DNA from: a virus
Taxonomy: Duplodnaviria > Caudoviricetes
Virus record (IMG/VR): IMGVR_UViG_3300033067_001837
Span: 32,001 to 96,000 of that record
Direction: 5' to 3' (one strand)
DNA length: 64,000 nucleotides
Shown here: positions 1 through 16,868 of the stretch, in pieces
Layout: the number at the start of each line of letters is the position of its first letter
How positions within the stretch are numbered: position 1 is the first letter of the stretch
The notes under the pieces: generated by a model
The model's input: only the letters and a program-made list of their open reading frames with translations
What the model was told of the DNA's origin: nothing
Databases searched by the model: none
Made by a program: the position numbers and the translations under genes

Positions 1-2500
1 GCGTTACTGTAATCGCCCTGGGTGAAAGCAATCGCTTTATAGGCGTAATCCTGAGCGATGCGATGCGCCTCTTCGCGGGGTTTATCCTTCAACTGTTCGC
101 GCATCAGACGATAAGCGGCAATCGCGGTCACTTCGCGGTTCGCGACTTCGGAATGATGGAACAGGAACGCGCCGGTCTTCATCGTTAAATCCCACAGACG
201 ACTGGCCTTACCCTGCCAGTTATCCCGCATCTGCCAGCTATCCTCACCCAGACCCGCTAACTGCGTCGTGGCGGAACGCGATACCCGTCCAGAACGCTCC
301 AGGAACTCCATAAGGCGGCCCATATCGCCCTGATACTCACCGCCCAGGATTTCCATTCCGGCAGCCTCTAATGGGCTAATAGCGCGGTCTATGGTGTAAC
401 CCTGAGCCTCCAGGGCTTTAATCGCTTGTTGATACTCCGCTTCATCCGTATAAGTGGAATACTTCACCTCATTCTGCGAAATCCCGTTCGCATCCGGTAC
501 GGTGCGGCTGGCTTTCAACGCCATCGGCGGTTTCAACGGATTGACACCCATCTTCCGCCAGCGATTCAAGACGCTGGAATAATCGTACATCGCTTTATGA
601 ATTGCGCCGAACGCGGCCCCACCGCCAAATTTGGACGCCAGTTCCGGGAAGGTCATCAGTGGCAACTGTGACAAGTTCACCATCGCCGTTGAGGGATTCG
701 TGAGGTGCCAGATAAAGCCCAGAGCGGTCAGACGGTTCGCCCAGGTCGCATTGGTGGGATTCATTAACCAGTCGTAGGACTTAATCAGTTCATTCAGAAT
801 TGCGCCAGCTTTTGCTTGATCATTTTCATGGGCCGATAGTCCCGTAACTTCTCGCTCCATCTGATAAAGTTGTTCCGACAGCACGTCCGCATAGCGTAGT
901 CGCGCTATCATGTTTGCGGAACCGTTCATAAACCTCCCGTAGGCCCGCAGCGCATCCCGGTTATAACCAAAGATGCCCTTGCGCCGCAGCAGGTGTTTCC
1001 GCACCGATAAGTCGGGCAAATTCTCCAGATAGAGATCGTACAGCGACTGTTTCAGCGCATCCCGTTCTTTCGGGTTGCGTACCGATTCATCAATGAACTG
1101 GTACATTTCACCCACGAACGTCCCACTGGGGGCAGACTCAATCTTGTCGCGTATGATCTGGTAATCTGTGTTGACTGTCCAACCGGCCTTTTCGAGTAAC
1201 TGGCGAGCCTGCTTCTGTTCGTGGATCGTCTCGAATTTCGAGAATGCCACTTCCTTCTCCAGCTTCGGCTGACCTGCCTCATCCAAGACCGGCTGTCCGG
1301 TACGCTTATTAATTTGCGGAATCATCCGTTCGGCAAAGACTTCGTACTTTCCATAGCGGGTCAGCGGGACATACGGCTGCCGACCTCGAGCAGCTTCAGC
1401 GTACAACTGAATCGACGCCATCATATTCTCTTGCCGGGCCTTGAACGCATAGTTCATAGCGCGATACAGCATTTGGGCATCTTCAGGGAGTTGCACCAAT
1501 TCAGCCCGCATCGCCGCGTGTTCTTCCGGCACAAAGGACTTCTGCGAGACCCGATCTACCAGGACGTTAATCGCCCGGCGTTGTGAACTGACAATCAAAT
1601 TTTCCAGCTTCCCGTAGGTCGCTCGATCCCGATCCATCAGTTCCCGCATCCGGGCCGCATGGGGTAGCTCATCGATCTTACGGCGCAACTGATAAAGCGC
1701 TTTCTGCTCATTGGAGAGCGTTTGATAGGTATTCTTCGCCTTTAAAATAGCTGAAGGATCAATTGGGCCGACCGGATCACTGATCTTGAAGCTTATCCCC
1801 GGTGAGTAGCGTTCCCCACGCTTAAACAACCGATACAGCGCCTCCACGACCGTCTTATCCTTGAGGGCTGCTGTCGCCCACTGCTGTTGAAGCTGCGCTG
1901 CCTCGGCCACATCCGCGTGATTATCGGCCATCCGCTTGGCGCGTTCCATCGTCACCCGAACCATCCCATAACCGGCCCGTCCCACTCGCTCCTTCATGGC
2001 GGCATACTTCATGTCATTGACGGACTGATAATTCTCAAACACCCGCTGTACCATATCCGCCAAAATAGGACTTTGCTTTTTCAGTTCCACAATCTTTTGC
2101 GTCAGCACCCCATACCAGCGCACTCGTTCAGCATAGGTGTAATCCGTGTCATCAATCTCACGGGGCGGGAGCGGTTTCGTAGGATCAATGCTGTGTAGCG
2201 TCGATCCATGAAGAATGTAGTCGAACAGATAAGCCGTCTGCCGATTACGCCCGGCCTCGCGCTGCCACTGTGGCACTAGACCATCGTACATATCGCGCTT
2301 AATGCGGCTCTTGGCACCGTCAATCAGTGAAGCAGCGTTCTCAAAGAACTCGGCAGACGGTAGCAACGTCCGTCCCAGTGCCGGGATTTTTCGGCTGGCG
2401 AGTTCAACTAACTGCTGGCGGGTCATCAGCCCCAACCCACGATTAAACCAGTCACGACCTTTATCCCACAACTTCTCCATCGTGAACGGGTCGGGCTGCT
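1..2500 (-). other. PLxRFG-like helical C-terminal region of the giant ORF
   Basis: PYVPLTRYGKY (~1345-1377), RKHLLRRKGIFGY, STAMVNLSQ, SEVANREVTAIAAYRL and TQGDYSN resemble C-terminal regions of large polyvalent phage proteins. Confidence 0.65.
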
Positions 2501-5500
2501 GGTCAAGAATCAACTGGCCAATATCGTCGTTGATGGATTGAGGGGTTGGAAGGGAGTAGCGGATGTCGGAATTAACGCTTAACGCCGTTCTGAAATTCGA
2601 CTGTAGCACCACATCCTTATCGGCGATGCCATCTCGGAACATCGTATTACGGTAAGGCGGGGTCGCTTGCCGTTCTTCCGGCGTCATCTCCAGACGGCTT
2701 GCGGTATCGCGAGCTTCAATTTCTCCAAAATTGCGCTTATAAAGCCCACCAGGACCCCATTTACTAATTTCAAGTGTAAGATTATTTTCTATTTTTACGG
2801 CAGCTTTACGTTTTTCTTCTGCATTCGCACGCTCTTGGCTACCGCGTGGCAGACTATCGCGTAGTCTGGCGAATTTAGTCTTATTGGTTCGCGCCTTTTT
2901 CTGCTGCTTGGTCAGTAGTTCAATCTCGCGCTTGGCGCGTTCGATAACTTCATAATCCTTTTTGAAAAATAAATCATCCTCATCATACAGTGACGAACTT
3001 GCTCCGGGGCTATGGCCTTCTATCGCCTGTACCGCGTGCTGCAATTCATGGATCAATGTCTTCTTAGCGTCTTCATACGTATGCGCCCTAATGTTAATCC
3101 GTTGATCGTTCCGGCCATATGAACCGCCTGCATCATGTATATTCGGATTAATGGTGAGATTAACATTTATACCCTGGAGTTGTGGATAATCAGAAAACAA
3201 TTGTGGATGAGAAACGATTTGCTCTAGTTGAGTCTGAATGCGATTTAGTGTTTCAGGCTGCTGTTGAATCCAGTCCGCGTTGAACGAAAAATCGCTATCG
3301 TCGATTTCAAATCTCCAACGATTATCGAATCCCTTGAACCAGCCTGTTTCCTTGCGTACCGTCTCTGCATCTTCACCGCTCTCAACTCGTTGTTTCGCTT
3401 GTTGCAGTAGCGGCTGATTCGCCGTAGTGGCTCGCACACCCGCATAGCTCTGCACCACGCTCTTTTTCCCGGAAAACACCCAGCGGCTCGTTGCCTCTTC
3501 ACCCTGATTCAGCTTCGCCTGAGATTCCCGCGCAAATTGCAGCACGTCGGTCATCGTTAGCGAGTTCACGAAGTCCTTGGCTAAACCGAATCGTCTCAAT
3601 ACCGCTTTAATCAAGTGCAGCAGCTTGTTCGTTGCCGCCAGCAACAGCCCGATCTTCTCATGCAGTCCGCGTTCAACAGTGACCGCAAAGATTTCACTGG
3701 CGCGATCCAGCTTACTTAAACCAGGCTGAGACGCATCGACTTGTGCGGCAATGGAACGAATTTCGCGATTATCGACCTTCTCCAGACGATCCAGTGCGTT
3801 CAGTACTTGAACGAACTCGGAAGAATCACGAAGATTCTGTGATGACCAATGACCTACAACCTCATGGGATAATACCTCTCTCGCTCTATCTAAAGAAGCA
3901 AGATTATCGGCAATTAGATAAATCTGATTGCTGCGTAAATCATAGAAACCTTCGGCGCGGGGGTCATTGAGGCGTTCCTGTAGGTCAGTAGACAGATCGG
4001 AAACGGACTGAACCACGTTCACCGTCAACCCGGCTCGTTGCCAAGCGACTCGATGCGGGTCAATCAGTTTTTCGACCCCAGAAGCAGAAACCCCGGAAGG
4101 GGCCGGGGTCTGTGGATTCGATTTGGAGTAAACCATGCCCGCAACGGGCGTTCCTGTTAAGCCTTCACGCAACTGTTGTACAACATCCGCCAGTAATCTT
4201 CTGGATTCTCCCACCCCTTCTCCGCTTCTTGATGAAAGGGTAAGCAGATAAGCTGTTCTCTTAAGCGTCGCGCTCCCTGCCTGCGCCGCTCGCGCTCCTG
4301 GGGACTCAGCGAGTGTTGTGAACAAATCTTCTCCAAACGCTCGCCCGGTGTCAGTGTTGATAAATCTTCTGTTTTCGAAGTCATAGCGAATCGCCTTTAA
4401 ATCAGGAACGTTCTCCAGTATATTCTGATTCGACTTTTCAATCAATGACTGGAAATCAGCTTCATCATTTCCTTTCCACTGAATGCCTTGTTTTTCATGC
4501 GGCCACAGGTGCTTGGTCGTACCATGTTTAATAGCTGACGCCAGCATATTCTCGGTGCGTCGGTAAACCGCAATATCGGTGAGTCCCATCGGGTCTCCGA
4601 TAAATACGAGGCCATTATTAGCAGCATAATCAGAGACGGCAGCATAGAAACGACTTCCTTGACCGCCCTCTTTCAGATTGGAGACGTTAATCCAAACGGA
4701 TTGCTTGCGCCGCATTACATAGCCGTGTCTTGTTTCTGAAACTCCACTTTCATCAGTATAAGGAACCCGAATCTCCCATGCCTGCTCAGCATCCACTTCT
4801 AGCGCTTCCGACTTCGGGAGTTCCCGGACAGTAAAATCGGGGACAACCTGCTGAAAGACCTCGGGTAGATTTTTGGAAGTAGCCTTCGGATTCTGGAACA
4901 GCGCCGGGTCTTGCGCCAACAAACGCAGGGCGGTCGTAACAATCTGAGGTTGTGGAGAATTAACGGTAGGCTCGATGATAGATGGGAGACTGTCAGAGCT
5001 AATGGACGGTAGGATAATCGGCTTTGGTTCAAACCCGCTGGCCGTCATCAGTTCTGGTTTCAGCAACGCTACCCAGCTTTCGCCGCCACTGGTGACATCC
5101 ACAGCGTCATAACCAGCGTCCAAAATCAGTTGAGTCAGTTCTGCTGTTAGCTCATCGCTTTGCTGTCCCCAAGTTTCGTCGGTAATCCCGATATTCAGAG
5201 CCGCCTGCTTGTTCAGCCGAATCCATGCGCTATCCGTAGACTCAATGGGCTGAAAGATGACTTCATCTTCCTGCAAGATCGGCAACACTTCTTCGTTGAC
5301 TATCAACGGATTGAGCGGTTGGCGATACTGAATTTTCTTGGTTTTCCCTAATGAGAAGAACGAAGCCGTCCCTTTCTTCTTGGCAATATACACGCCATGG
5401 CCTTCCGTGGCTCCGAAGCTGGGTCCGCCCTCTGGCATGACGCCACGATACCCGGTAACTTGGGGCTGTTGATCGTAAGCGTGTTCTTCCTGCCAGCGTT

Positions 5501-8500
5501 TAAATAACTGCTCTCCTTTCAGATGTACCCACTCTCGATCTGCGGCAGGAGTTCCGGTATACAGTCGCTGACCGTTCGGCGCATCAGCGACCCAGGCACC
5601 GTTGTTCTGGTAGACCTTAACCGGCGACTCCAGAACCTGCAACTCGGTCGTCCCGTACTGAATGGCACGATATCCGCGTTGACGCGCTTCCTGGGCCACC
5701 AGGGTATCCATGGCTACACCCATCGCTTGATAGGGGTCGCCGGGGAGTTCTAACTCAGCGACCTTTTTCAGCCAGTCCGTTTTCGGGAACCATTTACTTG
5801 CTAATGCTTCGGATGGCAACCCTTCAAACGCCTCGACTTCGCTTTCCGGCACCACCAGTAACTCATTGGGCTGGAAGGTGAAGGTGTTTTCCACCATATC
5901 CGGCTGCGCGTCGGCATCCAGGAAGTAGAAGGTGCCTGCCTGAATCGCTCCGGTAGCCGGGCTACTGACTTTACGGTAAGCGGTTACTCGATTTCCTCCA
6001 ATAGTGACGGACGCTTTCTTTGCGGCGTTCATCGCGGCCCGACTAAACAGCGGTTGGCCCTGCATGACCGACGCTACCATGTCGGGTGTAATGTCGATAC
6101 TATGAACCGACTCTATCGCATTCACAGTGTTAATCTTGGTCTGACCGACCTGAGTGCCCCACTTCTTGATGTACTTATTGATTTCGTTAGGGATCGTCTC
6201 ATTATACAGACGCTTTAAAAATTTATCTCCACCCCCTTTGTACCTTTTTGATTGCTGCTCACCCGTTGTCCAAGCAACTTTATCATACCCGTTTTCTGTT
6301 GCGTATCTCAGCATCCGCTTAAAGACAAGACCGGCCCAGCCGGAAAGAGTCTGTCCAGACCCTGTAATAGTTTGCTTAAAGGGAGCATTAGGGACTCCAT
6401 CTGCAATCTCATTTGCATCTTGTGCTGCTAATGCGATAGCTTCTTCTGGAGAATAAGCGAGATAGTGTACTTCACGTCCGGCACTTCTTCCTTCTGCGTC
6501 AGTTACATAATAGTTATGTTTGTTTTCTGGGGGTGCATTTGGGTTGGAATCAATAGCCGTCCATCCAGTTGTATCTGTTGTAAGTAATATATACCCCCTA
6601 TCCTTCCCCTCCTGATGTCTCTTGCTTTGAATCTCCTCAATAAACAATACCTGCTTTCCATTTTCATCAGTACGATCATTAAACCTTACCCATGCAATAG
6701 CCCGCCCATCTGCTATATCACCATAATGTGTTTCGTCTGTAGTATAGGGTTCAATGTTGGGATTTGTTATAACTAACTCCCGTTGATTTTTTCCACCAGG
6801 TAAAGTCCATTTTGTATTTCTATTTTGGCTGAGCTTGTATTCATTTATTAACTCAGGATAACGCTTTTCTAGAGCATCGTAATGATACGATCCATCTACA
6901 TAATTATTATTTTCATCAAAAATTTCCCAAAAACCTGTATCAACCCTATACTTTACTCTATTACTTGGAATTCCAAACTCAGTTTCTTCCACCTGAATCT
7001 CATTGCTCCGCACAAACGCCAACACATCCTCTTTCGGCACCAGCGTTTTCTGTCCGCGCAGCCATTCCAGCGTTCCCGTCCAGTCCAGTTCTTCCTGCTT
7101 CACCTGGCCTTTCTTCACCAAGTTTTCCAGGATCGACGCCCATTGCGGGCCAGGCGCTTTCTTTTGCGAAAGGTCGTTAATAACCTTGGATAATCCCGAA
7201 TAGAACATCGGATTCGGCTGATCACCGCGTGAAATCGCCGCTTGATCCGCAATCTGCACGTCACCCCGAGCCGCCTTTCGTACCCCGGCCTGCGCCCAGT
7301 TCACCAGATCTTCCAGGGTCAGCTTAGACGCATTGATCGGGTAGCCGCGCTGAATGAACCAGCCACGCATAGTGTTGACCAGTCGCCGTAGGAAATCGGC
7401 GATCTTCGGGCTGATGGTCTTAGCGACCCACTCAATGAACTTCCCGTCTGCTACCTGGAAGTCCGCTAAACGGCCCTGAGAGACCGCTTCTTCTACCAAG
7501 TAAGCGGTGTACTCCTTGGGATCGTTCGTGGCACCAGCGGCCTCCAGGCGGGCATACACGCGATTTAGGAATTGACGTAGCGCCGGATTCTTCTCCTGCG
7601 CCGGATTCTTCACCAGTTTCATCGCCGCCGCGTCAACATCGGCCTGTTGCTGGCCGTGAATCATCTCATGCAGCAGTACACTGGGCGCAGCTTCGGTAGA
7701 TAGATTCGGGAGAACCGCAAAGGTTAAACCGCTGCGGGGATCGAATATTCCAACCAATCGGCCATTACCACGAATTTCTTGAATAGCATCATCTTGTTGA
7801 CGCCCAGTCTTCTCCGCAAACACCCGTGCAATATCATCAACTTCTTTCGAGTTAATCAGCACCAGCCCGCCTTTCTGGCCTTTCTCGCCACGCGCTAGTA
7901 TCTTATCCAGCGCACCTGACAGGTGTGGGAATCGTTCACGGATGGCAGCAACGAATCCGGACTTTGACAGACCGGGGGCCGTGGCCTTAGTGCGAGATGC
8001 CTGAGCGCGTTGTCCCAGAATGTTATCCGCCGTCAAGCGACGGGTGGTGTCAGTGATTGCTCCTTTCACCACTGCCTGCTGATTATTCAGGCGTTCTTGC
8101 AGAATCTTCGCCCAACGGAAATCAAAGTCATCGGGCATATTATTGGCGAATAGCCAATGCACGTTCGCCTGGGATTTCAGACCGTACCGGGCGATGCGCC
8201 CGCTCACCTGTTCGAACTCAGACGCTTTATAAGGAATCGCGACGTTGTATTGGAAGGATGGACGGTTTCCGGTGGTATCATGCAGTGACAGCCCGGTTCC
8301 GCCCTTCGCCATTGTCGCAATCAAAATGCGGGGGCCAGTATTGGCTTGTTTCCAACTTTCACGATTCGTTGTGTTCTTCTGAGCGGTCAGCGCCCCAGTA
8401 TATTCCGCCACTGAACCTTTACCGAAAACAGGTTCAAGTAGTTCCATCATTGTTTTCACCGGCGATTCCAGCCGAGTCACCATGTCAGCGTTTTTAAACG

Positions 8501-11500
8501 CCTGTGCCATGTAGCGAGAATAAGCCGAAAAAAGTCCTTGGTTTTCAATGATCTGGTAAGGCATCCCGTCTGGTGAGAATTTAGTGACTTCCACCATTGC
8601 GCCCAAGGTGGATTTCCATTTATTCTCCAACTCCAGCATGTCGTCAATCGTAAACTGTTTATTTCTGATTTGATTAATCAGATACTTTAATGCGCCAATG
8701 GCTTGCGGTTTGTCGCCTTTAAATTTTTCGTTAGCTACTGCGGATAAAATGTCTGACCTTTCACCATTAATAGCCGCGTTAATTTTTGCTATAATCCGCT
8801 TTTCACCGGTGTCATCTGTAACATCATTCCAGATACCAAATGTACCTAATTCTAATGGAGCTTTTGCGCTCAAAAACACGACAGCCTTATTCGCCGGATT
8901 AGCTTGTAGGTCTTGTTCAATCATTCGCGCTGTGGGGGCCAGCTTACCGAACTCCGCTAACCGTTTTTTAGTATTTTCACGCTGCATCTTGATCATATCT
9001 TTAATGGGTGCCGCCTCTTCAGAGGGGTCAGCCATTGCCGCGTCAAACACACCAATAATCGGATTGTAGTACTTTTCGTAGAATTCGGCATCAATCGCAA
9101 CCGGCGTTAGATGGGTAATGCTCGCTTCCCGTCCGTCCGGTAAAGAACCAAGTTCAATCGGGCGATGAGACATTAAGTTACGGTCAACGAACCATTGGCG
9201 GGCTTTTTGTCCGGCTTCAAGCTGTTCAATCATAAACTCCAATTGAGCCGCTTCAAATAAACGAATACTGGCTAACCGTTCTTCTTGGCTGAGTTTTGGG
9301 TCAGCAATAAAGGTCGGTGAAGCGGGCCATTTAATAGTTAAACGAGGTTCGGCATTCCTTTTCTTGCGATCCTTGGTCAACTGAATATCTGCGCCATGTT
9401 CAATCGCCCAAATTTGGAAACCGTTTAGCGGTAAATCTTTATAGAGGATATTCTCACGCTTGGCGAGTTCGTCATAATCACTAAACAAACCACTATTAGC
9501 GAGGTATTCAGATTCACTAGGGGTTTCAAATGGGGTAGCGCTGGAATAGAAGGTAAACTTGGCGCGGCGCATTAATTCTCCGGCGTTGTTTGCGCCTTCG
9601 CTGCCGTCGATAATGTTTTTAACCTTATGGGCTTCATCAAAAATCAGAACCGTATCCTTATTAACCACAATCCGTTGCTCATCTTCACCGCCAAACTCAA
9701 TCGTACTATGGCTTTTATAGTGAGTAACTCTGGCATTGCGCGGATTTTGAATACGGGCGTAGGTAATAATATCGACTCGCGGATCATTAATCCCATAATC
9801 CGGTAAATCCTGCTGACGGACTTGGTCAATCAAAGCATTGCTGTTGGTAAAGTACAACACTCGAGCATCCGGGGAGCGCGCCAGAATTTCCTTAATTAGT
9901 CCACCGATCACAAATGTCTTACCACTACCAGGATCGGAAGACAGCATAAACGCCGGTTTCTTCTCGTAATTCGCTAATGCCTTACCAATATCTTCGATCT
10001 GCCAGTCTACCACCTGGCGCGGCATAAACTCTAATCCGCGTTCGATAAGACCAACGGTGTCCTGGCTAACTTGGCTGCGATAATCTTTTGTACGGGGAGA
10101 TTCAGTCCCCATGCTGACTCGATCACCTGATCCGGTATCTCCACGAGCGAGAGTTCGGATTCTTCCGCGTAACTGGTCAAGTACTGCATTACTGCTTGCT
10201 CGACGAGTTCCGGTTGCTCCTGTTTCAGTAAATATAGTTCCTCGGGAGACAGGGATTCCGAGGTTTTGGGCAATGGCATAAGCAAGTCCTTCTTGAATGG
10301 CTTGTTGGCGATATTCGACATCCGTCACCATACGATTCGCAATTTTCTTTATTTGCGATTGTATCGGCACACTGAAAGGATCGGATTTTAAATACTTATG
10401 AAAGATCGCCTCAACAAAAGCCGTGGTTTTATTCTTGAACGGCCCGAACGCATAGGTTTTTTTATCAAAGCGAGGACGGAAATAGAAGCCGGTTTCCTTG
10501 TCAAAATGGCGGGGTTGGTTCCATGGAGCTAATTCAGAATTTACTAAAATAGGTATCGTTTCGTTAGTTTCCGGCAACGTCACTAATACGGCATCGCCCA
10601 CGGAAAACGCCCATTCCCATTGACGATTTATAGTGGTTTCGACACCCCGTTCCTTGAGAATTTCCGCAACCGTTTTCGGAGCAACAACGGCTTCGGTAGC
10701 AGGAGCAGATGTGGGTTTCGTGGCTGGAGGTACGACCGTTTCAGCCTGCATGTCTTCAATAAAACGAACGACATAGGGCTGCATCCGCTTAACCATTTCT
10801 GGGTCTTTAAAGCGATCCAGCAACGCCCGGATCACCAGGCGCATCGCTTCACGAATATCCTCAGCGGCATTTTTGAAGTGAGCGATAGCCGATTGAAACA
10901 GCGGCTTAGCCTTGGCGTAAGTTTCCTCATCGAACGTCGGATTCATGGACAACCGACCATTCCCGCCAAATAATTCGGCCAGCGCATCCAGGGTATCGCT
11001 CAGACCTTTAGCGGTTTCACGAATAGCAGAAGCTGCAACTTGTCCAGCAGTCGGTTGTGGCTCGGGGGTAGGGGCAGGTTTGGGTTGTTTTTCATCCTGA
11101 TCTTTTGCGACCTCTTGATTAAGCAGGTCATCAAACATGGCATTAAGATCGGTTTCCGCTAGTGTTGGTGCAACGTCTTTCGGGGTAGCTTTAGGCGATT
11201 CAGTCGGTTTAGGCGCTTTAGCTTCTTTAGGCGGTGGGTTTAAAATGTCATCTGCATTCGGCAAATTCTCGGTTTCCAGAACCTCATCAGCTTCGGCATC
11301 CGGCACCGCATTTTCCTGTGGCGGTTGCGCCATAAGTAGCGTCTCTCCATCCGGGAAGGTCACGGTTTCCAGAGTATAGTATTTCAGCGCATCCTGGGCG
11401 GCGGGCGAGAGTTGCGACTTGAGACGCTCCAGGTCTTCGGCGATAAACGACTCGTTATTCTCAATCGACTCTTCATAATAAGTGAGTGTTATTTTATCGC

Positions 11501-14500
11501 TTTCGGGAATAACCTTATCATTTGACGCAGGTGTGGGTTCTTGGAAAGATTCAGCAAACAAATCGTCGTTCGTATTAACCGAAGCATCTTTAGCGTTTTT
11601 ACGAATTTGCTCATAGATCGATTTTATATCTTTTGTTGGGGTTCCTAGTCTCCGAAGTTCTGCTTTCGGGTCAGCTTGTTGCGTACCAAATAACTGCCAA
11701 AAACCAATCTGTGCTTCTGTCAATGCCGCTGCATTCGTTTTCGTCAGCGGATCATACGGACGAATCTCCCAACGCCATTTTCTACCTTCAACTTCTGCGT
11801 TGTAATGACGCACCGGCTGTTGTAGGTGCTCATCCAGTGCCTGCGCCAGTTTTTCCTGGTACTGATTTTCGCGATCCTGTTCAGCGTTTCGTGCTTGAGC
11901 AACCGCTGCATAAATCCGTTTACCACCGCCCCGATTCTTGGGTGCGTAGTCCGTGAGCGCTTGACGCAACGCTGCCAGCATGGCATTGGCATTATATCGG
12001 TTAGTTTCCCCGATCTGGTAAGTGTATTCCAGGCGATTATCGGGATCATTAAAGACCGGGTAATTATCTTGAGAGAGCGCTTCAGCCATTCCGTCCAGAG
12101 AAAGCCCGAACTCGGAAAATACATAGCGCATTTTACCATCGATATTACCCAACAGCAGGTTCTTATTGCCGTTCAGATCAATGTGTTCTTGATTGATAAT
12201 TTCGGAATCCAGACCGCCAAGCTTGCTGATCGCCAGCAGAAGATCGTCGGTTTCTGGATTCGGCGGTTCTACTACGGGAGCAGAGGGCGGACGACTTGCA
12301 GGAGTCCCTGATCCCACTCCGCTACTGGGCGGTGGATTAGGTTGTCCACTTGCTCCGGTGTCAGGTTTTCCAGTTGCCCCTGGAGTTGCAGGAGCAGCAG
12401 CAGGGCGCGGCGTTGAACTGGGTTGAGTTCTGGCAGGGTTGAGCTTGGCGGCTCCATCTTCATTCGCATAAACTCCTAAAATTTCGTAGCGTTCACCGAC
12501 TGGTAAAATTACCAGTGGCGTAATGGTTTGAATGTCTTGATAGATTCGATGCGCTTCACCCATTGCCATATCATTCGGCAACTCTTTATGTCCCCACCAG
12601 GGCGCATCGGTATAGATGATATGGTTGCCTGCCGCTTTGGCGCGAGCTAAAGCATCCCGAACTTGCCGATAGGTTTCAATCGGAACCAAATCTTGACCAT
12701 TATAGCTATTCGTACCATAGTACGGTGGATCATAAATCGCAAGAACATGAGCGCCAGTTTGTTGAGTTACCTGAAAACTATCTCCAGTATGTACAATAAT
12801 TTTGAAGTTAGGCCGGGTTTTCTTAATTTGTTCGATATTGTTTTGTATGCCATTAATATTATTAGAAATTACCCTAACAGCATTATCGTACAGTATATTG
12901 ACTTTAGCTGAATAATCTTCACCGGCTTGTATTCTATTCGGTGTCTGTTTATTACCTTGGTCAATTATCGCCTGTAAAACCGCTCGCAATTCATCTTGTG
13001 AAGCAGGAATGGAATCTAAAATGCCACTCAAATTGCGCGCTAAAGTTGCTTGTGAAAGTAAGCGAACACTGCCTTTTTCGTCACGTCCAGCCGCTTGGCT
13101 CTTAACCGCCATATCATTCAGTAATTGAGTAACTTGCGGTTCTGTGTTGCGGATATGACCCGCAATTTCAATAAATCGATCTGCGGTGATGCGGTTTTGG
13201 TTAACACTACCGTCAGGGTTAACACCCGCAAACATTTGAATTTTTTTGGAGCGATCTTCATTTAATTCATATAAATGAATCTCTTGGGTATTGATCGCAA
13301 CGCGAGCGGCAACCGCTAATCCCCATCCGCCACTGCCGCCGAAATAATCATGAATCGTGGTAATCGACGGAATTACGCCACGTAATTGATACCGAAAATA
13401 AGGAAATGCGACTTGCGCAACCTTCCGCTTCCCACCTTGGAAAGTCGGAATACCGTTTGCTGCGCTCAAGTCATCTTTAACAAGATTACCCTTTGTCGCT
13501 TCCTTGAGTTGCGGGTTTTGTTGTTCAAATTCTTGTACCACCTCATGCATCCAGGGTGGTGTCATTGATTTAGGTGAAGCGCCTTTACCGTCTTCCGTAG
13601 GAATAATGAGTTCGTAATTCGACAGACGATCTTTGGCGGTTTTCGGAACTTCTATTTTCGCATCTTTTGTGGGAGACGTTGTTGGGGTTTCTGCTGCCGA
13701 CGCTGTGGGCGTTGCAGTAGAACTAGCCGCTTTTTGTGCAGATGGTGTTACTGTCTTCTTTCCCTGCTTCTTGGCAGTCTCTACCGTCTGAGTATGCAGC
13801 GATTCAGTGAGTTCCGGCTCACCAACGATCCGCGCAATCCGGTTCCAGATCGGCAAGCTATGTTCCCACGGCAAGAACGGATGAGTCGCGTGAGCCGTGT
13901 GAATTTGTACCGGCGTCATCACCTGCGGGTGAATGGGGGCGGGAGCGACTTTGGGAGCAGCAGGCGGTGTCCGAGCGGCAGTGATTTGCGCAACTCGCTG
14001 TGCGGACACTTGAGCAGCGCGACGAAGTAGGCCCAGAGTGCGACTGGCACCGCTGGTGTCCAGGGTCGTAGTTTTCCCGGTCAATGGATTAGTGAGCGTA
14101 GAAACAGCCGGGGCTGGAGCAATCGACGGAGCGTTTGCATCATTCAGGCCGGAGAGCGCCTGTTGCTGGCTTTGCGGATTAACGGGTTGCCCACTATTGG
14201 GCGTTGCCATCAGTGGGGCATTGGCGGCGTTCAAACCAGACAACGCCTGTTGCCGATTCTCCAGAGCAGCAATTTCTGTATCAATATTCTGCTGGTCAGC
14301 CGCTGTTGGGGCCGACATCTGTAAGCCCTGTAAGGTTGCTAGACGCCCTTCTTCCTGCTGCGCCTGGCTCTGTAAACCGGCTTGCTGACCGATTTGTTGA
14401 GTCGCCAAGAAGTCCTGTTCACGTTGATTGCGCTGTGTAATGATGGTCTGCATCGCCCGCTGTACCACCGCTTTTTCCTGCGGGGTCGTGGGCTTAATCT

Positions 14501-16847: not shown

Positions 16848-16868
16848 ATCAATCACCCTTTAAAAACT

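What the first reader, a model, noticed from the sequence alone, without database searches (positions are those of the whole stretch)
4157..12477. Three small genes nested in the +1 frame of the giant polyvalent gene, each directly behind a domain: possible built-in partner or immunity genes
Seen: ORFs 12272-12463, 10031-10279 and 4157-4384 lie on the same strand in the +1 frame. Each has an SD-like sequence at 7-9 nt (AGGAG, GAAGGA, AAAGGCG) and encodes a helical L/E/Q-rich protein, unlike the S/R-rich shadow ORFs nearby. Over the first two the giant frame becomes a P/A/G/T/R-rich linker, as expected if the nested frame is the constrained one; the effect is weaker for the third. They follow the Dam-like methyltransferase, an unknown domain (~10300-10650) and the GNAT-like core. 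Inference: modules were captured as effector-plus-partner pairs and fused in frame by reading through the partner gene. The small proteins could inhibit or chaperone the adjacent domain during virion assembly, as immunity genes do for polymorphic toxins.
Basis: partly seen in the sequence, partly recalled or inferred. Interest (0 to 1): 0.85.

Follow-up and report, generated by a model that had tools for sequence, protein, structure and literature searches.

The report
Conserved hidden genes inside giant gene
Three small reading frames, each one base out of step inside a 5,972-codon phage gene, stay open in distant relatives and keep their own ribosome-binding sites and protein sequences, so they are most likely real, unannotated genes that travel with particular domains of the giant protein.

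Summary
The three +1-frame ORFs exist as described. By length alone they are unremarkable. The giant gene has 20 +1 stretches of 60 codons or more, and codon shuffles give about as many.

Comparison with relatives changes the verdict. At the homologous places in divergent polyvalent-protein genes, the same +1 frames are open, begin at a conserved SD plus start codon, and encode alignable peptides. Host-frame identity in these relatives is 28-50%.
- **ORF B (3 lineages):** host-frame third-position identity is 0.54 against a null of 0.28 (z 9.4). The signal rises and falls at the ORF borders. The +1 similarity has z 11.4.
- **ORF C (3-4 lineages, including Erwinia phages PEp14 and Pavtok):** z 6-7.
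- **ORF A (5 of 7 lineages):** it lies at the end of a DPPY methyltransferase-like domain, always behind a GGAG-containing SD.
- **Controls:** six other long +1 stretches of the same gene all fail these tests.
- **Structure:** AlphaFold gives compact helical folds for A and B.
- **Database searches:** no known family, fold or paper matches.

Real nested genes are therefore well supported. Their role as partners of the adjacent domain remains inference. This scan earlier found tnpV genes nested in polyvalent genes of Firmicute conjugative elements, on other DNA. These three are different families.

The parts
3..16856 (-). Host gene: giant polyvalent-protein ORF. 5,618 codons lie in the window and 5,972 in the full record; it runs off the window start.
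   Evidence: Pfam LPD37, LPD23, LPD39, ResIII helicase and DUF6782/M91-like peptidase. Virion structural genes lie upstream.
12272..12463 (-). Nested ORF A. +1 frame, 63 aa, pI 5.1, predicted three-helix protein. An alternative ATG lies at 12469.
   Evidence: Homologous +1 ORFs in P0156, P0123, P0149 and P0105 share the motif L(T/S)xxExxxLxxxP(V/F)x(E/D)W. Leave-one-out HMM E 1e-7 to 0.12, always the top hit. WIN-P0156 +1 score z 3.3 and pos3 z 4.1. AF2 pLDDT 83, pTM 0.61.
12473..12477 (-). SD of ORF A: AGGAG, 9 nt before the ATG. The preceding +1 stop TAG overlaps it (TAGGAG).
   Evidence: TAGGAG, TAGGAGG or GGAGGTGA lies 5-9 nt before the ATG in all five lineages, with dG -6.8 to -10.6.
12459..12899 (-). 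DPPY methyltransferase-like domain, C-terminal half (giant aa ~1320-1466). ORF A starts inside its last conserved strand (ERYEILGVYANE).
   Evidence: Alignment A5 of 7 lineages has invariant DPPY, YTD and WW. Pfam and PDB sequence searches are silent.
10031..10279 (-). Nested ORF B. +1 frame, 82 aa, pI 4.3, net charge about -8.5, predicted four-helix protein. A longer form starts at ATG 10321 (96 aa).
   Evidence: Open at the homologous place in P0004/P0155 and P0156, with the same stop. pos3 identity 0.54 against null 0.28 (z 9.4) and +1 score z 11.4. P(open) is 0.028, 0.002 and 0.037. Leave-one-out E 1e-13 to 2e-22. AF2 pLDDT 77.8, pTM 0.64.
10287..10292 (-). SD of ORF B: GAAGGA, 7 nt before ATG 10279.
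   Evidence: GAAGGA, GAGGGA and GGAGGA, each followed by 7 nt and ATG, sit in the same alignment columns in three lineages. dG is -5.4, -6.1 and -9.3.
10323..10673 (-). Conserved segment of unknown family upstream of ORF B (giant aa ~2062-2178).
   Evidence: Aligned to P0004/P0155 and P0156. No Pfam family.
9447..10007 (-). ResIII/AAA_34 helicase core directly downstream. ORF B overlaps its conserved N-terminal extension.
   Evidence: Pfam. Distant helicase homologues begin to align at giant aa ~2232-2262.
4157..4384 (-). Nested ORF C. +1 frame, 75 aa, pI 7.8.
   Evidence: Open with a similar peptide in P0156, Erwinia phages PEp14, Stean and Pavtok, and a Massilia plasmid. Shared motifs are (R/L)L(R/K)Ex(L/Y/F)xx(I/L)P(F/W)(H/Y) and (D/N)(Y/F)W. 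z 6.1-6.9 and pos3 z 3.8-4.9. Leave-one-out E 3e-9 to 2e-6. The PEp14-Pavtok substitution pattern supports it.
4392..4398 (-). SD-like AAAGGCG, 7 nt before the ATG of ORF C (weak).
   Evidence: dG -4.2. P0156 has AGAGGA plus 8 nt plus ATG at the same codon, dG -5.8. Pavtokviruses have GGAG plus 7 nt plus GTG four codons upstream.
4230..4931 (-). LPD37 domain (giant aa 3976-4209). ORF C overlaps its last ~52 residues.
   Evidence: Pfam PF18853, E 2.4e-61.

Best explanation
The three ORFs are real, unannotated protein-coding genes nested in the +1 frame of the giant polyvalent-protein gene.

How they are made: ribosomes start independently at an internal Shine-Dalgarno site plus start codon on the giant gene's mRNA. 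They produce small proteins of 63, 82 (or 96) and 75 residues. A and B are predicted to be helical; C was not folded. Each nested gene starts inside the end of, or just after, one conserved module:
- A: a DPPY methyltransferase-like domain.
- B: the segment in front of the ResIII helicase.
- C: LPD37.
Each is inherited together with its module in distant phages and plasmids.

Shown here: dual coding under selection and conserved initiation signals.

Inferred: each small protein is a module-specific partner made in the producing cell from the same message. It might be an inhibitor, a holder or chaperone, or a docking adaptor. It would keep its domain harmless, soluble or packaging-competent until the giant protein is loaded into the virion. 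I put the partner role at about 0.35-0.4. The stated confidence refers to the genes being real nested coding sequences (about 0.95 for B, 0.85 for A, 0.8 for C).
For: ORF B
- In WIN, P0155 and P0156 (host-frame identity 40-50%) the +1 frame is open over the same span and ends at the same TAG inside the host-frame RGL.
- Host-frame third-position identity is 0.55, against 0.33-0.40 everywhere else in 900 aligned codons.
- The signal switches on at aa 2179 and off at aa 2276, which are the ORF borders.
- Identical residues use the same codon in 63-70% of cases, against 35-43% elsewhere (Fisher p 0.008, 0.0025, 2e-5).
- Against synonymous-codon resampling, the +1 similarity has z 11.4 and pos3 has z 9.4. 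Seven control windows give z -0.7 to 2.1.
- First and second positions are not more alike than in the flanks, so recent exchange is excluded.

ORF A
- Five lineages (WIN, P0156, P0123, P0149, P0105) carry a +1 ORF right after the same domain.
- Each starts 5-9 nt behind a GGAG-containing SD (TAGGAG, TAGGAGG or GGAGGTGA), with dG -6.8 to -10.6.
- The peptides align, while the host frame there is an unalignable low-complexity linker.
- Every left-out member is the top hit of the leave-one-out HMM among 3,082 six-frame segments.

ORF C
- It is open with an alignable peptide in P0156, the Pavtokviruses and (weakly, E 7.6e-4) a Massilia plasmid. z is 6.1-6.9.
- Between PEp14 and Pavtok, nucleotide differences by host codon position are 20/8/16 inside the ORF and 66/40/277 outside.
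- In that pair the +1 frame is as conserved as the host frame inside the ORF. This is true in 0 of 106 control windows.

Controls and structure
- Six other long +1 stretches of the same gene, including the longest (143 codons), have stops in homologues and z -0.4 to 1.6.
- AF2 on alignments of 3-4 sequences gives compact helical models: pLDDT 77.8 and 83, pTM 0.64 and 0.61.
Against: - There is no direct evidence of translation.
- Only 3-5 independent lineages exist per ORF, mostly metagenomic.
- Two lineages with the DPPY domain (P0146, P0150) lack ORF A.
- Within this genome alone the ORF lengths are at chance level.
- The SD of C is weak here. The ATG of C is missing in the Pavtokviruses, which need a GTG start.
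- The resampling null ignores codon-context effects. One control window in the LPD37 core reached z 2.8.
- No known family, fold or free-standing homologue gives a functional handle.
- The partner role rests on co-inheritance only.
Confidence: 0.8

Rival explanations
1. The nested genes are real, but their products work independently of the adjacent domain. They could be, for example, small regulators or anti-defence proteins. On this view they arose by overprinting because linkers and loosely constrained segments tolerate a second frame, and the link to a module is only physical.
For: - No binding evidence exists.
- The host frame over B is older than the nested frame in its 3' part. Distant helicase homologues align from aa ~2232 on, which fits overprinting rather than capture.
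- No free-standing homologues were found.
- Weak, unverified HTH-like fold rows appear for A.
- The scan's earlier tnpV-in-polyvalent cases concern a gene with a function of its own.
Against: - ORF A follows the same DPPY domain in five lineages whose downstream domains differ.
- The SD and start are built into the last conserved strand of that domain.
- Three different nested families each keep to one module.
Confidence: 0.4
2. The +1 frames are reached by programmed ribosomal frameshifting from the giant frame. This would give truncated polyvalent isoforms with alternative helical C-termini. The SD-like strings would act as frameshift stimulators rather than initiation sites.
For: - Internal SD-like elements stimulate frameshifting in prfB and dnaX (established knowledge).
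- The conserved +1 sequence would be explained equally well.
- For B the +1 frame is conserved for 14 codons upstream of the SD-supported ATG.
Against: - A +1 stop lies 1-5 codons before the conserved start in A and C, which leaves almost no room for a shift site.
- A start codon 5-9 nt after the SD is present in every lineage, even where the SD has moved relative to the host-frame alignment (P0149, P0105).
- No slippery motif or in-frame stop or hungry codon is conserved at the junctions (read by eye).
Confidence: 0.06
3. The synonymous-site conservation reflects a nucleic-acid signal and the +1 peptides are by-products. The signal could be RNA structure, an internal promoter, or ribosome loading that protects an 18-kb message.
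For: - Promoter-like -strand sites lie just upstream of B (10414-10385) and C (4445-4417), though each matches only 9 of 12 positions.
- Internal SD sites could serve ribosome loading.
Against: - The conserved span equals the ORF from start to stop.
- The +1 frame stays free of stops in every lineage: P about 2e-6 for B, the product of the three P(open) values.
- +1 substitutions are conservative: mean BLOSUM at mismatches is +0.35, against -1.06 in controls.
- The peptides of A align where the nucleotides and host frame do not.
- The peptides fold confidently.
Confidence: 0.04
4. These are chance open frames: shadow ORFs produced by the codon composition of linkers that lack T at codon position 2.
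For: - Shuffles of this gene give as many and as long +1 ORFs.
- Over ORF A only 6% of host codons have T at position 2, so +1 stops can hardly arise there. P(open) is 0.13-0.5 under resampling.
Against: - Chance does not explain conserved SD plus ATG, conserved +1 peptides, excess third-position identity or a conserved stop position.
- All of these are present for the three ORFs and absent from six other long +1 stretches.
Confidence: 0.03

Closest known systems
tnpV genes nested out of frame in the linker of polyvalent-protein genes of Firmicute conjugative elements
   Same: - A small gene with its own SD sits in a second frame of a giant polyvalent gene, over a low-complexity linker.
- It is conserved across relatives and missed by annotation.
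   Different: - These three are not TnpV. PF14198 finds nothing in the whole virus record at E up to 10, and Pfam finds nothing in the peptides.
- Here three different nested families occur in one phage gene.
- Two of them overlap conserved host-frame sequence rather than only a linker.
Rz/Rz1 spanin genes of phage lambda (own knowledge)
   Same: - A small gene lies wholly embedded in the +1 frame of a larger gene on the same strand.
- It is translated from its own start.
- The two products are functionally linked.
   Different: - Rz1 is a lipoprotein with a signal sequence, and the pair is a lysis device.
- Here the host is a ~6,000-residue multi-domain protein carrying three separate embedded genes.
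- No signal peptides are evident and the function is unknown.
[quoted passage not shown]
   Same: A small ORF sits in another frame inside a giant multi-module gene and is expressed from the same operon message.
   Different: - ComS is a regulatory peptide unrelated to the enzymology of the module it overlaps. It is a single case in one lineage.
- Here each nested gene co-occurs with a particular module in distant mobile elements.
Immunity genes of polymorphic toxin systems and antitoxins of TA pairs (own knowledge)
   Same: A small protein gene is placed at the 3' side of an effector module and inherited with it as a cassette.
   Different: - Immunity genes lie downstream as separate, non-overlapping genes.
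- Neutralisation and binding define the class and are untested here.
- The adjacent modules (DPPY domain, helicase N-terminus, LPD37) are not known toxins.

Membership tests
Same-strand nested (overlapping) protein-coding gene | The alternative frame is kept open at the homologous place in divergent relatives | tested here: met
   - B: 3 lineages, with P(open) 0.028, 0.002 and 0.037 under resampling.
- A: 5 of 7 lineages.
- C: P0156, PEp14/Stean/Pavtok and Massilia.
- Six control stretches are not open in homologues.
Same-strand nested (overlapping) protein-coding gene | Reduced synonymous variability of the host frame, confined to the overlap | tested here: met
   - B: pos3 identity 0.54 against null 0.28 (z 9.4), with borders at the ORF ends.
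- A: z 4.1.
- C: z 3.8-4.9.
- C is not met in the close PEp14-Pavtok pair. There host-frame non-synonymous change is raised instead.
Same-strand nested (overlapping) protein-coding gene | Protein-like conservation of the alternative-frame product | tested here: met
   - +1 BLOSUM z is 11.4 (B), 6.1-6.9 (C) and 3.3 (A, one pair).
- Leave-one-out HMMs recover each member as the top hit.
- Substitutions are conservative in PEp14-Pavtok.
Same-strand nested (overlapping) protein-coding gene | Own translation initiation signal | tested here: met
   An SD plus start codon at 5-9 nt is conserved in all lineages of A and B and in WIN and P0156 for C. Pavtokviruses have GGAG plus 7 nt plus GTG.
Same-strand nested (overlapping) protein-coding gene | The product is detected (ribosome profiling, mass spectrometry, tagged protein) | not testable with these tools
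   No expression data could be reached.
Polyvalent protein (host gene) | A giant multi-domain protein of a phage or conjugative element with LPD domains and enzymatic modules | tested here: met
   Pfam LPD37 (E 2.4e-61), LPD23 (1.4e-21), LPD39 (just below the cut-off) and ResIII. Relatives are 2,000-6,000-residue proteins with ART-PolyVal, ddrB-ParB, MuF_C and LPD domains.
TnpV (PF14198) | Match to the family profile | tested here: not met
   There is no match anywhere in the virus record at E up to 10. Pfam scans of all members of A and B, and of C, show none.
Toxin-immunity / effector-partner pair | The small protein binds and neutralises the adjacent domain | not testable with these tools
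   Only co-inheritance is shown. Binding and rescue need experiments.
Programmed +1 ribosomal frameshift | A conserved shift site (slippery or hungry codon or stop) with an open path from the host frame into the +1 frame | tested here: not met
   A +1 stop lies 1-5 codons before the start of A and C in every lineage, and no conserved slip motif is seen. This is a reading of the alignments by eye, not a formal search.
Dam / D12-class N6-adenine methyltransferase (domain upstream of ORF A) | Match to MethyltransfD12 and the catalytic DPPY motif | tested here: inconclusive
   DPPY and IIYTDxxWW are invariant in 7 lineages. PF02086 does not match the giant gene, and Pfam is silent at E up to 1.
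RIIa-type dimerisation/docking domain (lead for ORF B) | Match to the RIIa profile or fold | tested here: inconclusive
   - The profile of B hits PKA RII-alpha D/D chains over LRxxxPDLxExAV. E is 0.006 for a chain fused to a designed repeat and 0.3-0.6 for natural chains.
- Pfam RIIa finds nothing in the record.
- The fold searches do not list it.

The most novel reading that the evidence does not exclude
Polyvalent proteins of phages and conjugative elements may be built from cassettes of 'domain plus nested partner gene'. In this reading the alternative frame of the linker or junction after a module routinely encodes a small module-specific protein, such as a holder, inhibitor or docking adaptor. 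That protein is made in cis from the same message and shuffles together with the module between elements. Linkers would then be read-through of these small genes, and a hidden layer of many small protein families would exist inside the largest genes of mobile elements.
Probability: 0.3. Interest if true: 0.9.

Novelty: new variant of a known kind. Interest (0 to 1): 0.8.

Why it matters
Long same-strand nested genes are few in bacteria and phages, and each known case is a one-off (Rz/Rz1, comS in srfAB, the phiX174 genes). Here one gene carries three. Each belongs to a protein family with no match in the libraries searched, and each is conserved across relatives that share only 28-50% host-frame identity.

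Consequences:
- Gene callers and domain databases would be missing a class of small proteins inside the largest genes of mobile elements.
- 'Linkers' of polyvalent proteins would not be neutral spacers.
- Module shuffling in these proteins may move two genes at once.

The claim can be tested directly. Each nested start can be removed by a change that is silent in the giant frame, and ORF C has cultured relatives (Erwinia phages PEp14, Pavtok, Stean).

Tried and rejected
1. Compensated-frameshift fossil for ORF B (the +1 peptide being the ancestral host frame). Rejected. The host frame over B aligns at 46% identity to P0004 and is conserved in three lineages. None of 160 polyvalent proteins carries A, B or C in frame.
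2. Close relatives in public phage records and IMG/VR. No match by megablast, tblastn or pattern scans for regions A and B. One word-index search was limited to proteins of 512-2000 aa and found nothing.
3. Free-standing homologues of family A among proteins of 33-132 aa. None. The sensitivity of that search is limited.
4. Pfam, PHROGs and PDB-sequence searches of the small proteins. Nothing significant.
5. Fold searches of both AF2 models. Foldseek E is at least 3 and VIA-align Z is at most 4.2. The top rows are antitoxin or HTH-type proteins (PezA, HipB) at chance level.
6. ESM Atlas. For B the nearest clusters are MshEN/GSPE_N1E at 0.89, below the 0.9 lead threshold. For A there is nothing. 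Pfam does not confirm MshEN.
7. A and B as paralogues. hhalign probability is 0.4%.
8. Complex prediction of the DPPY-domain alignment with the family A alignment. No verdict: score 0.27, below the mark of 0.32, and controls were not run. This is neither for nor against binding.
9. A host-frame segment of PEp14 after LPD37 resembles the ORF A peptide (BLAST E 5e-4 in a small database). The family HMM does not confirm it.
10. RIIa docking-domain lead for B. Not confirmed by Pfam.
P0158 is too long to look up.

Full report
**What is in the window.** The minus strand of window 3-16856 carries one uninterrupted ORF of 5,618 codons, or 5,972 in the full 110,582-bp virus record. Pfam finds LPD37, LPD23, LPD39, a ResIII/AAA_34 helicase and an M91/DUF6782-like peptidase, so the gene encodes a polyvalent protein. 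Virion structural genes lie just upstream. The three ORFs of the finding are present on the same strand in the +1 frame.

**Chance within this genome.** The +1 frame of the giant gene has 239 stop-free stretches, and 20 of them are 60 codons or longer. The three chosen rank 2nd, 7th and 11th. The longest (11744-12172, 143 codons) was not chosen. I ran three nulls: global codon permutation, synonymous shuffling and local permutation. They give 14-15 stretches of 60 or more, about 10 of 68 or more, 5-6 of 80 or more, and a maximum near 120-130. Length and openness are therefore not evidence. Over ORF A the host frame is a P/A/S/T/G linker in which only 6% of codons have T at position 2. All three stop codons start with T, so +1 stops can hardly arise there. 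At this point I rated chance ORFs at about 85%.

**The turn: relatives.** Public phage records and IMG/VR pattern scans gave no close relatives. An exhaustive HMMER search of 1.84 billion representatives and a region-restricted word search did find divergent polyvalent proteins. I fetched their DNA. tblastn also found the LPD37 region in Erwinia phages PEp14, Stean and Pavtok and in a Massilia plasmid.

**ORF B.** WIN, P0004/P0155 (one lineage) and P0156 share 40-50% host-frame identity here.
- All have an open +1 frame of 98-108 codons at the same place.
- All end at the same TAG inside the host-frame RGL.
- The peptides are 39-44% identical.
- The SD (GAAGGA, GAGGGA, GGAGGA), a 7-nt spacer and the ATG occupy the same alignment columns. 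Duplex energies are -5.4, -6.1 and -9.3.
- Host-frame third-position identity is 0.55 in the ORF and 0.33-0.40 in every other window of 900 aligned codons, including the best conserved helicase motifs.
- The fraction of columns with the third base identical in all three is 0.41 against 0.15. It rises at aa 2179 and falls at aa 2276, which are the ORF borders.
- First and second positions are not raised, so this is not a recently exchanged segment.
- Against a null that keeps each host protein and redraws synonymous codons from that gene's usage, the +1 similarity is z 11.4 and pos3 identity is z 9.4. P(open) is 0.028, 0.002 and 0.037. Seven control windows give z -0.7 to 2.1.

The host frame is itself conserved there (GLAYAIA, VLDxLRxxIR, RGL, MPxxVVDWQI), so both frames are constrained.

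**ORF A.** The domain upstream has invariant DPPY and YTDxxWW in seven lineages (alignment A5). Pfam, including MethyltransfD12, does not match it. In five of the seven lineages (WIN, P0156, P0123, P0149, P0105) a +1 ORF of 61-75 codons starts at the end of this domain.
- Each lies 5-9 nt behind a GGAG-containing SD (TAGGAG, TAGGAGG or GGAGGTGA), with dG -6.8 to -10.6.
- A +1 stop overlaps the SD itself.
- The SD sits at different host-frame columns in P0149 and P0105, which argues for selection on initiation rather than inheritance of a host-frame motif.
- The peptides share A(L)xLL...L(T/S)xxExxxLxxxP(V/F)x(E/D)W...L, while the host frame is an unalignable low-complexity linker.
- Leave-one-out HMMs rank each omitted member first among 3,082 six-frame segments, with E 1e-7, 2e-8, 1e-3, 3.5e-4 and 0.12. 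The best unrelated hits have E 0.7-3.
- For the one pair alignable in the host frame, +1 similarity is z 3.3 and pos3 is z 4.1. Controls give -1.3 to 1.3.
- P0146 and P0150 lack the ORF.

**ORF C.** It overlaps the last ~52 residues of the LPD37 match.
- P0156 has the same ATG (MTS...), an AGAGGA SD, and an 89-codon ORF ending four codons later.
- PEp14 and Stean, and more weakly the Massilia plasmid (HMM E 7.6e-4), have open +1 frames with the shared motifs (R/L)L(R/K)Ex(L/Y/F)xx(I/L)P(F/W)(H/Y) and (D/N)(Y/F)W.
- The host-frame Arg of the conserved (T/D)(L/V/I)KR motif is AGA in all five sequences shown.
- z is 6.1 with four lineages and 6.9 with three. pos3 z is 3.8-4.9. Controls give 0.3-2.8.
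- In the close pair PEp14-Pavtok (91% identity), differences by host codon position are 66/40/277 outside the ORF and 20/8/16 inside.
- In that pair the +1 frame is as well conserved as the host frame inside the ORF, which happens in 0 of 106 control windows. +1 mismatches are conservative: mean BLOSUM is +0.35, against -1.06 in controls.
- Synonymous change is not reduced in that pair.
- The ATG seen in PEp14 is absent in Pavtok. A GGAG plus 7 nt plus GTG start is shared by both.

C is therefore the least secure of the three.

**Controls.** Six other long +1 stretches of the same gene lie in alignable blocks: 11744-12172, 15341-15607, 1052-1321, 4442-4672, 4799-5044 and 10628-10831. All have stops in homologues and z between -0.4 and 1.6.

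**The proteins.** A is 63 aa with pI 5.1. B is 82 aa with pI 4.3 and net charge about -8.5. C is 75 aa with pI 7.8. AF2 with only 3-4 sequences gives compact helical models. B has four helices, pLDDT 77.8 and pTM 0.64. A has three helices, pLDDT 83 and pTM 0.61. No Pfam, PHROG, PDB-sequence or fold match is significant. A and B are not detectably related. Two leads remain unconfirmed. One is an RIIa-like LRxxxPDLxExAV helix-turn-helix in B (against 132). The other is MshEN-like features.

**Mechanism.** Shown: dual coding under purifying selection, and conserved canonical initiation signals. The best reading is independent internal initiation on the giant gene's message. Frameshifting is unlikely, because a +1 stop lies 1-5 codons before the start of A and C and every lineage keeps a start codon at SD distance. 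An RNA-level signal does not explain stop avoidance, conservative +1 substitutions, or peptide similarity where the nucleotides do not align.

Inferred only: each small protein works with the module it is inherited with. For B, the 3' part of the host frame is shared with distant helicases, which points to overprinting instead.

**Comparison with what is known.** Full-text searches found no paper linking polyvalent proteins or DarB-like proteins with nested genes. The closest textbook cases are Rz/Rz1 and comS in srfAB. This scan has already reported tnpV nested in polyvalent genes of Firmicute conjugative elements on other DNA. The present ORFs are not TnpV. They extend the theme to a phage, to three families in one gene, and to overlaps with conserved host sequence.

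**Verdict.** The 'captured pairs' origin and the inhibitor or chaperone function remain open. This is a new variant of a known kind, of high interest.

Noticed in passing
L014:4890-5156 (protein P0157, a more distant helicase-bearing polyvalent gene): At the column where ORF B starts, this gene also has a strong SD (AGAGGTGA, 5 nt, ATG; dG -7.1) and an 88-codon +1 ORF ending five codons earlier. The peptide has no detectable similarity to family B, and P(open) by resampling is 0.135. It may be a positional analogue or chance.
   Followed up: partly
window 10414-10385 and 4445-4417, minus strand: Sigma-70-like promoter matches (9 of 12 positions) lie about 60-100 nt upstream of ORF B and 33 nt upstream of ORF C. 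The region has 17 such matches against 9.7 +/- 3.0 in shuffles. Conservation in relatives was not checked.
   Followed up: no
L013:10934-11158 (PEp14) against L015 (Pavtok): The stretch that holds the ORF C homologue is a divergence hotspot of the DarB-like protein. Host-frame identity is 0.72 there against 0.92 elsewhere, with first-position changes outnumbering third-position changes.
   Followed up: yes
window 3-16856, minus strand: The +1 frame has about half the stop density of the +2 frame (239 against 448 stop-free stretches). Every same-strand ORF of 50 aa or more inside the giant gene is therefore in +1. This is a codon-usage effect that makes +1 shadow ORFs common.
   Followed up: yes
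window 3245-3508, minus strand (+1 stretch of 88 codons over LPD23, giant aa 4450-4537): This is another long +1 stretch with an 85-codon GTG-start ORF, overlapping a Pfam domain. No homologue with DNA covered it, so it could not be tested for conservation. The same holds for 14984-15220 and 14339-14560.
   Followed up: no
L008:1690-1836 (PEp14, host frame, just after LPD37): An in-frame segment reads LPxxNxxQ...L..ITPEE...IADW and resembles the ORF A peptide (BLAST E 5e-4 in a small database). The family HMM does not confirm it. It may hint that such helical units also occur in frame.
   Followed up: partly
window 12459-12899, minus strand: The domain upstream of ORF A keeps DPPY, GDSY and IIYTDxxWW in seven lineages but matches no Pfam methyltransferase model. 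It may be an undescribed methyltransferase-like family of polyvalent proteins.
   Followed up: partly
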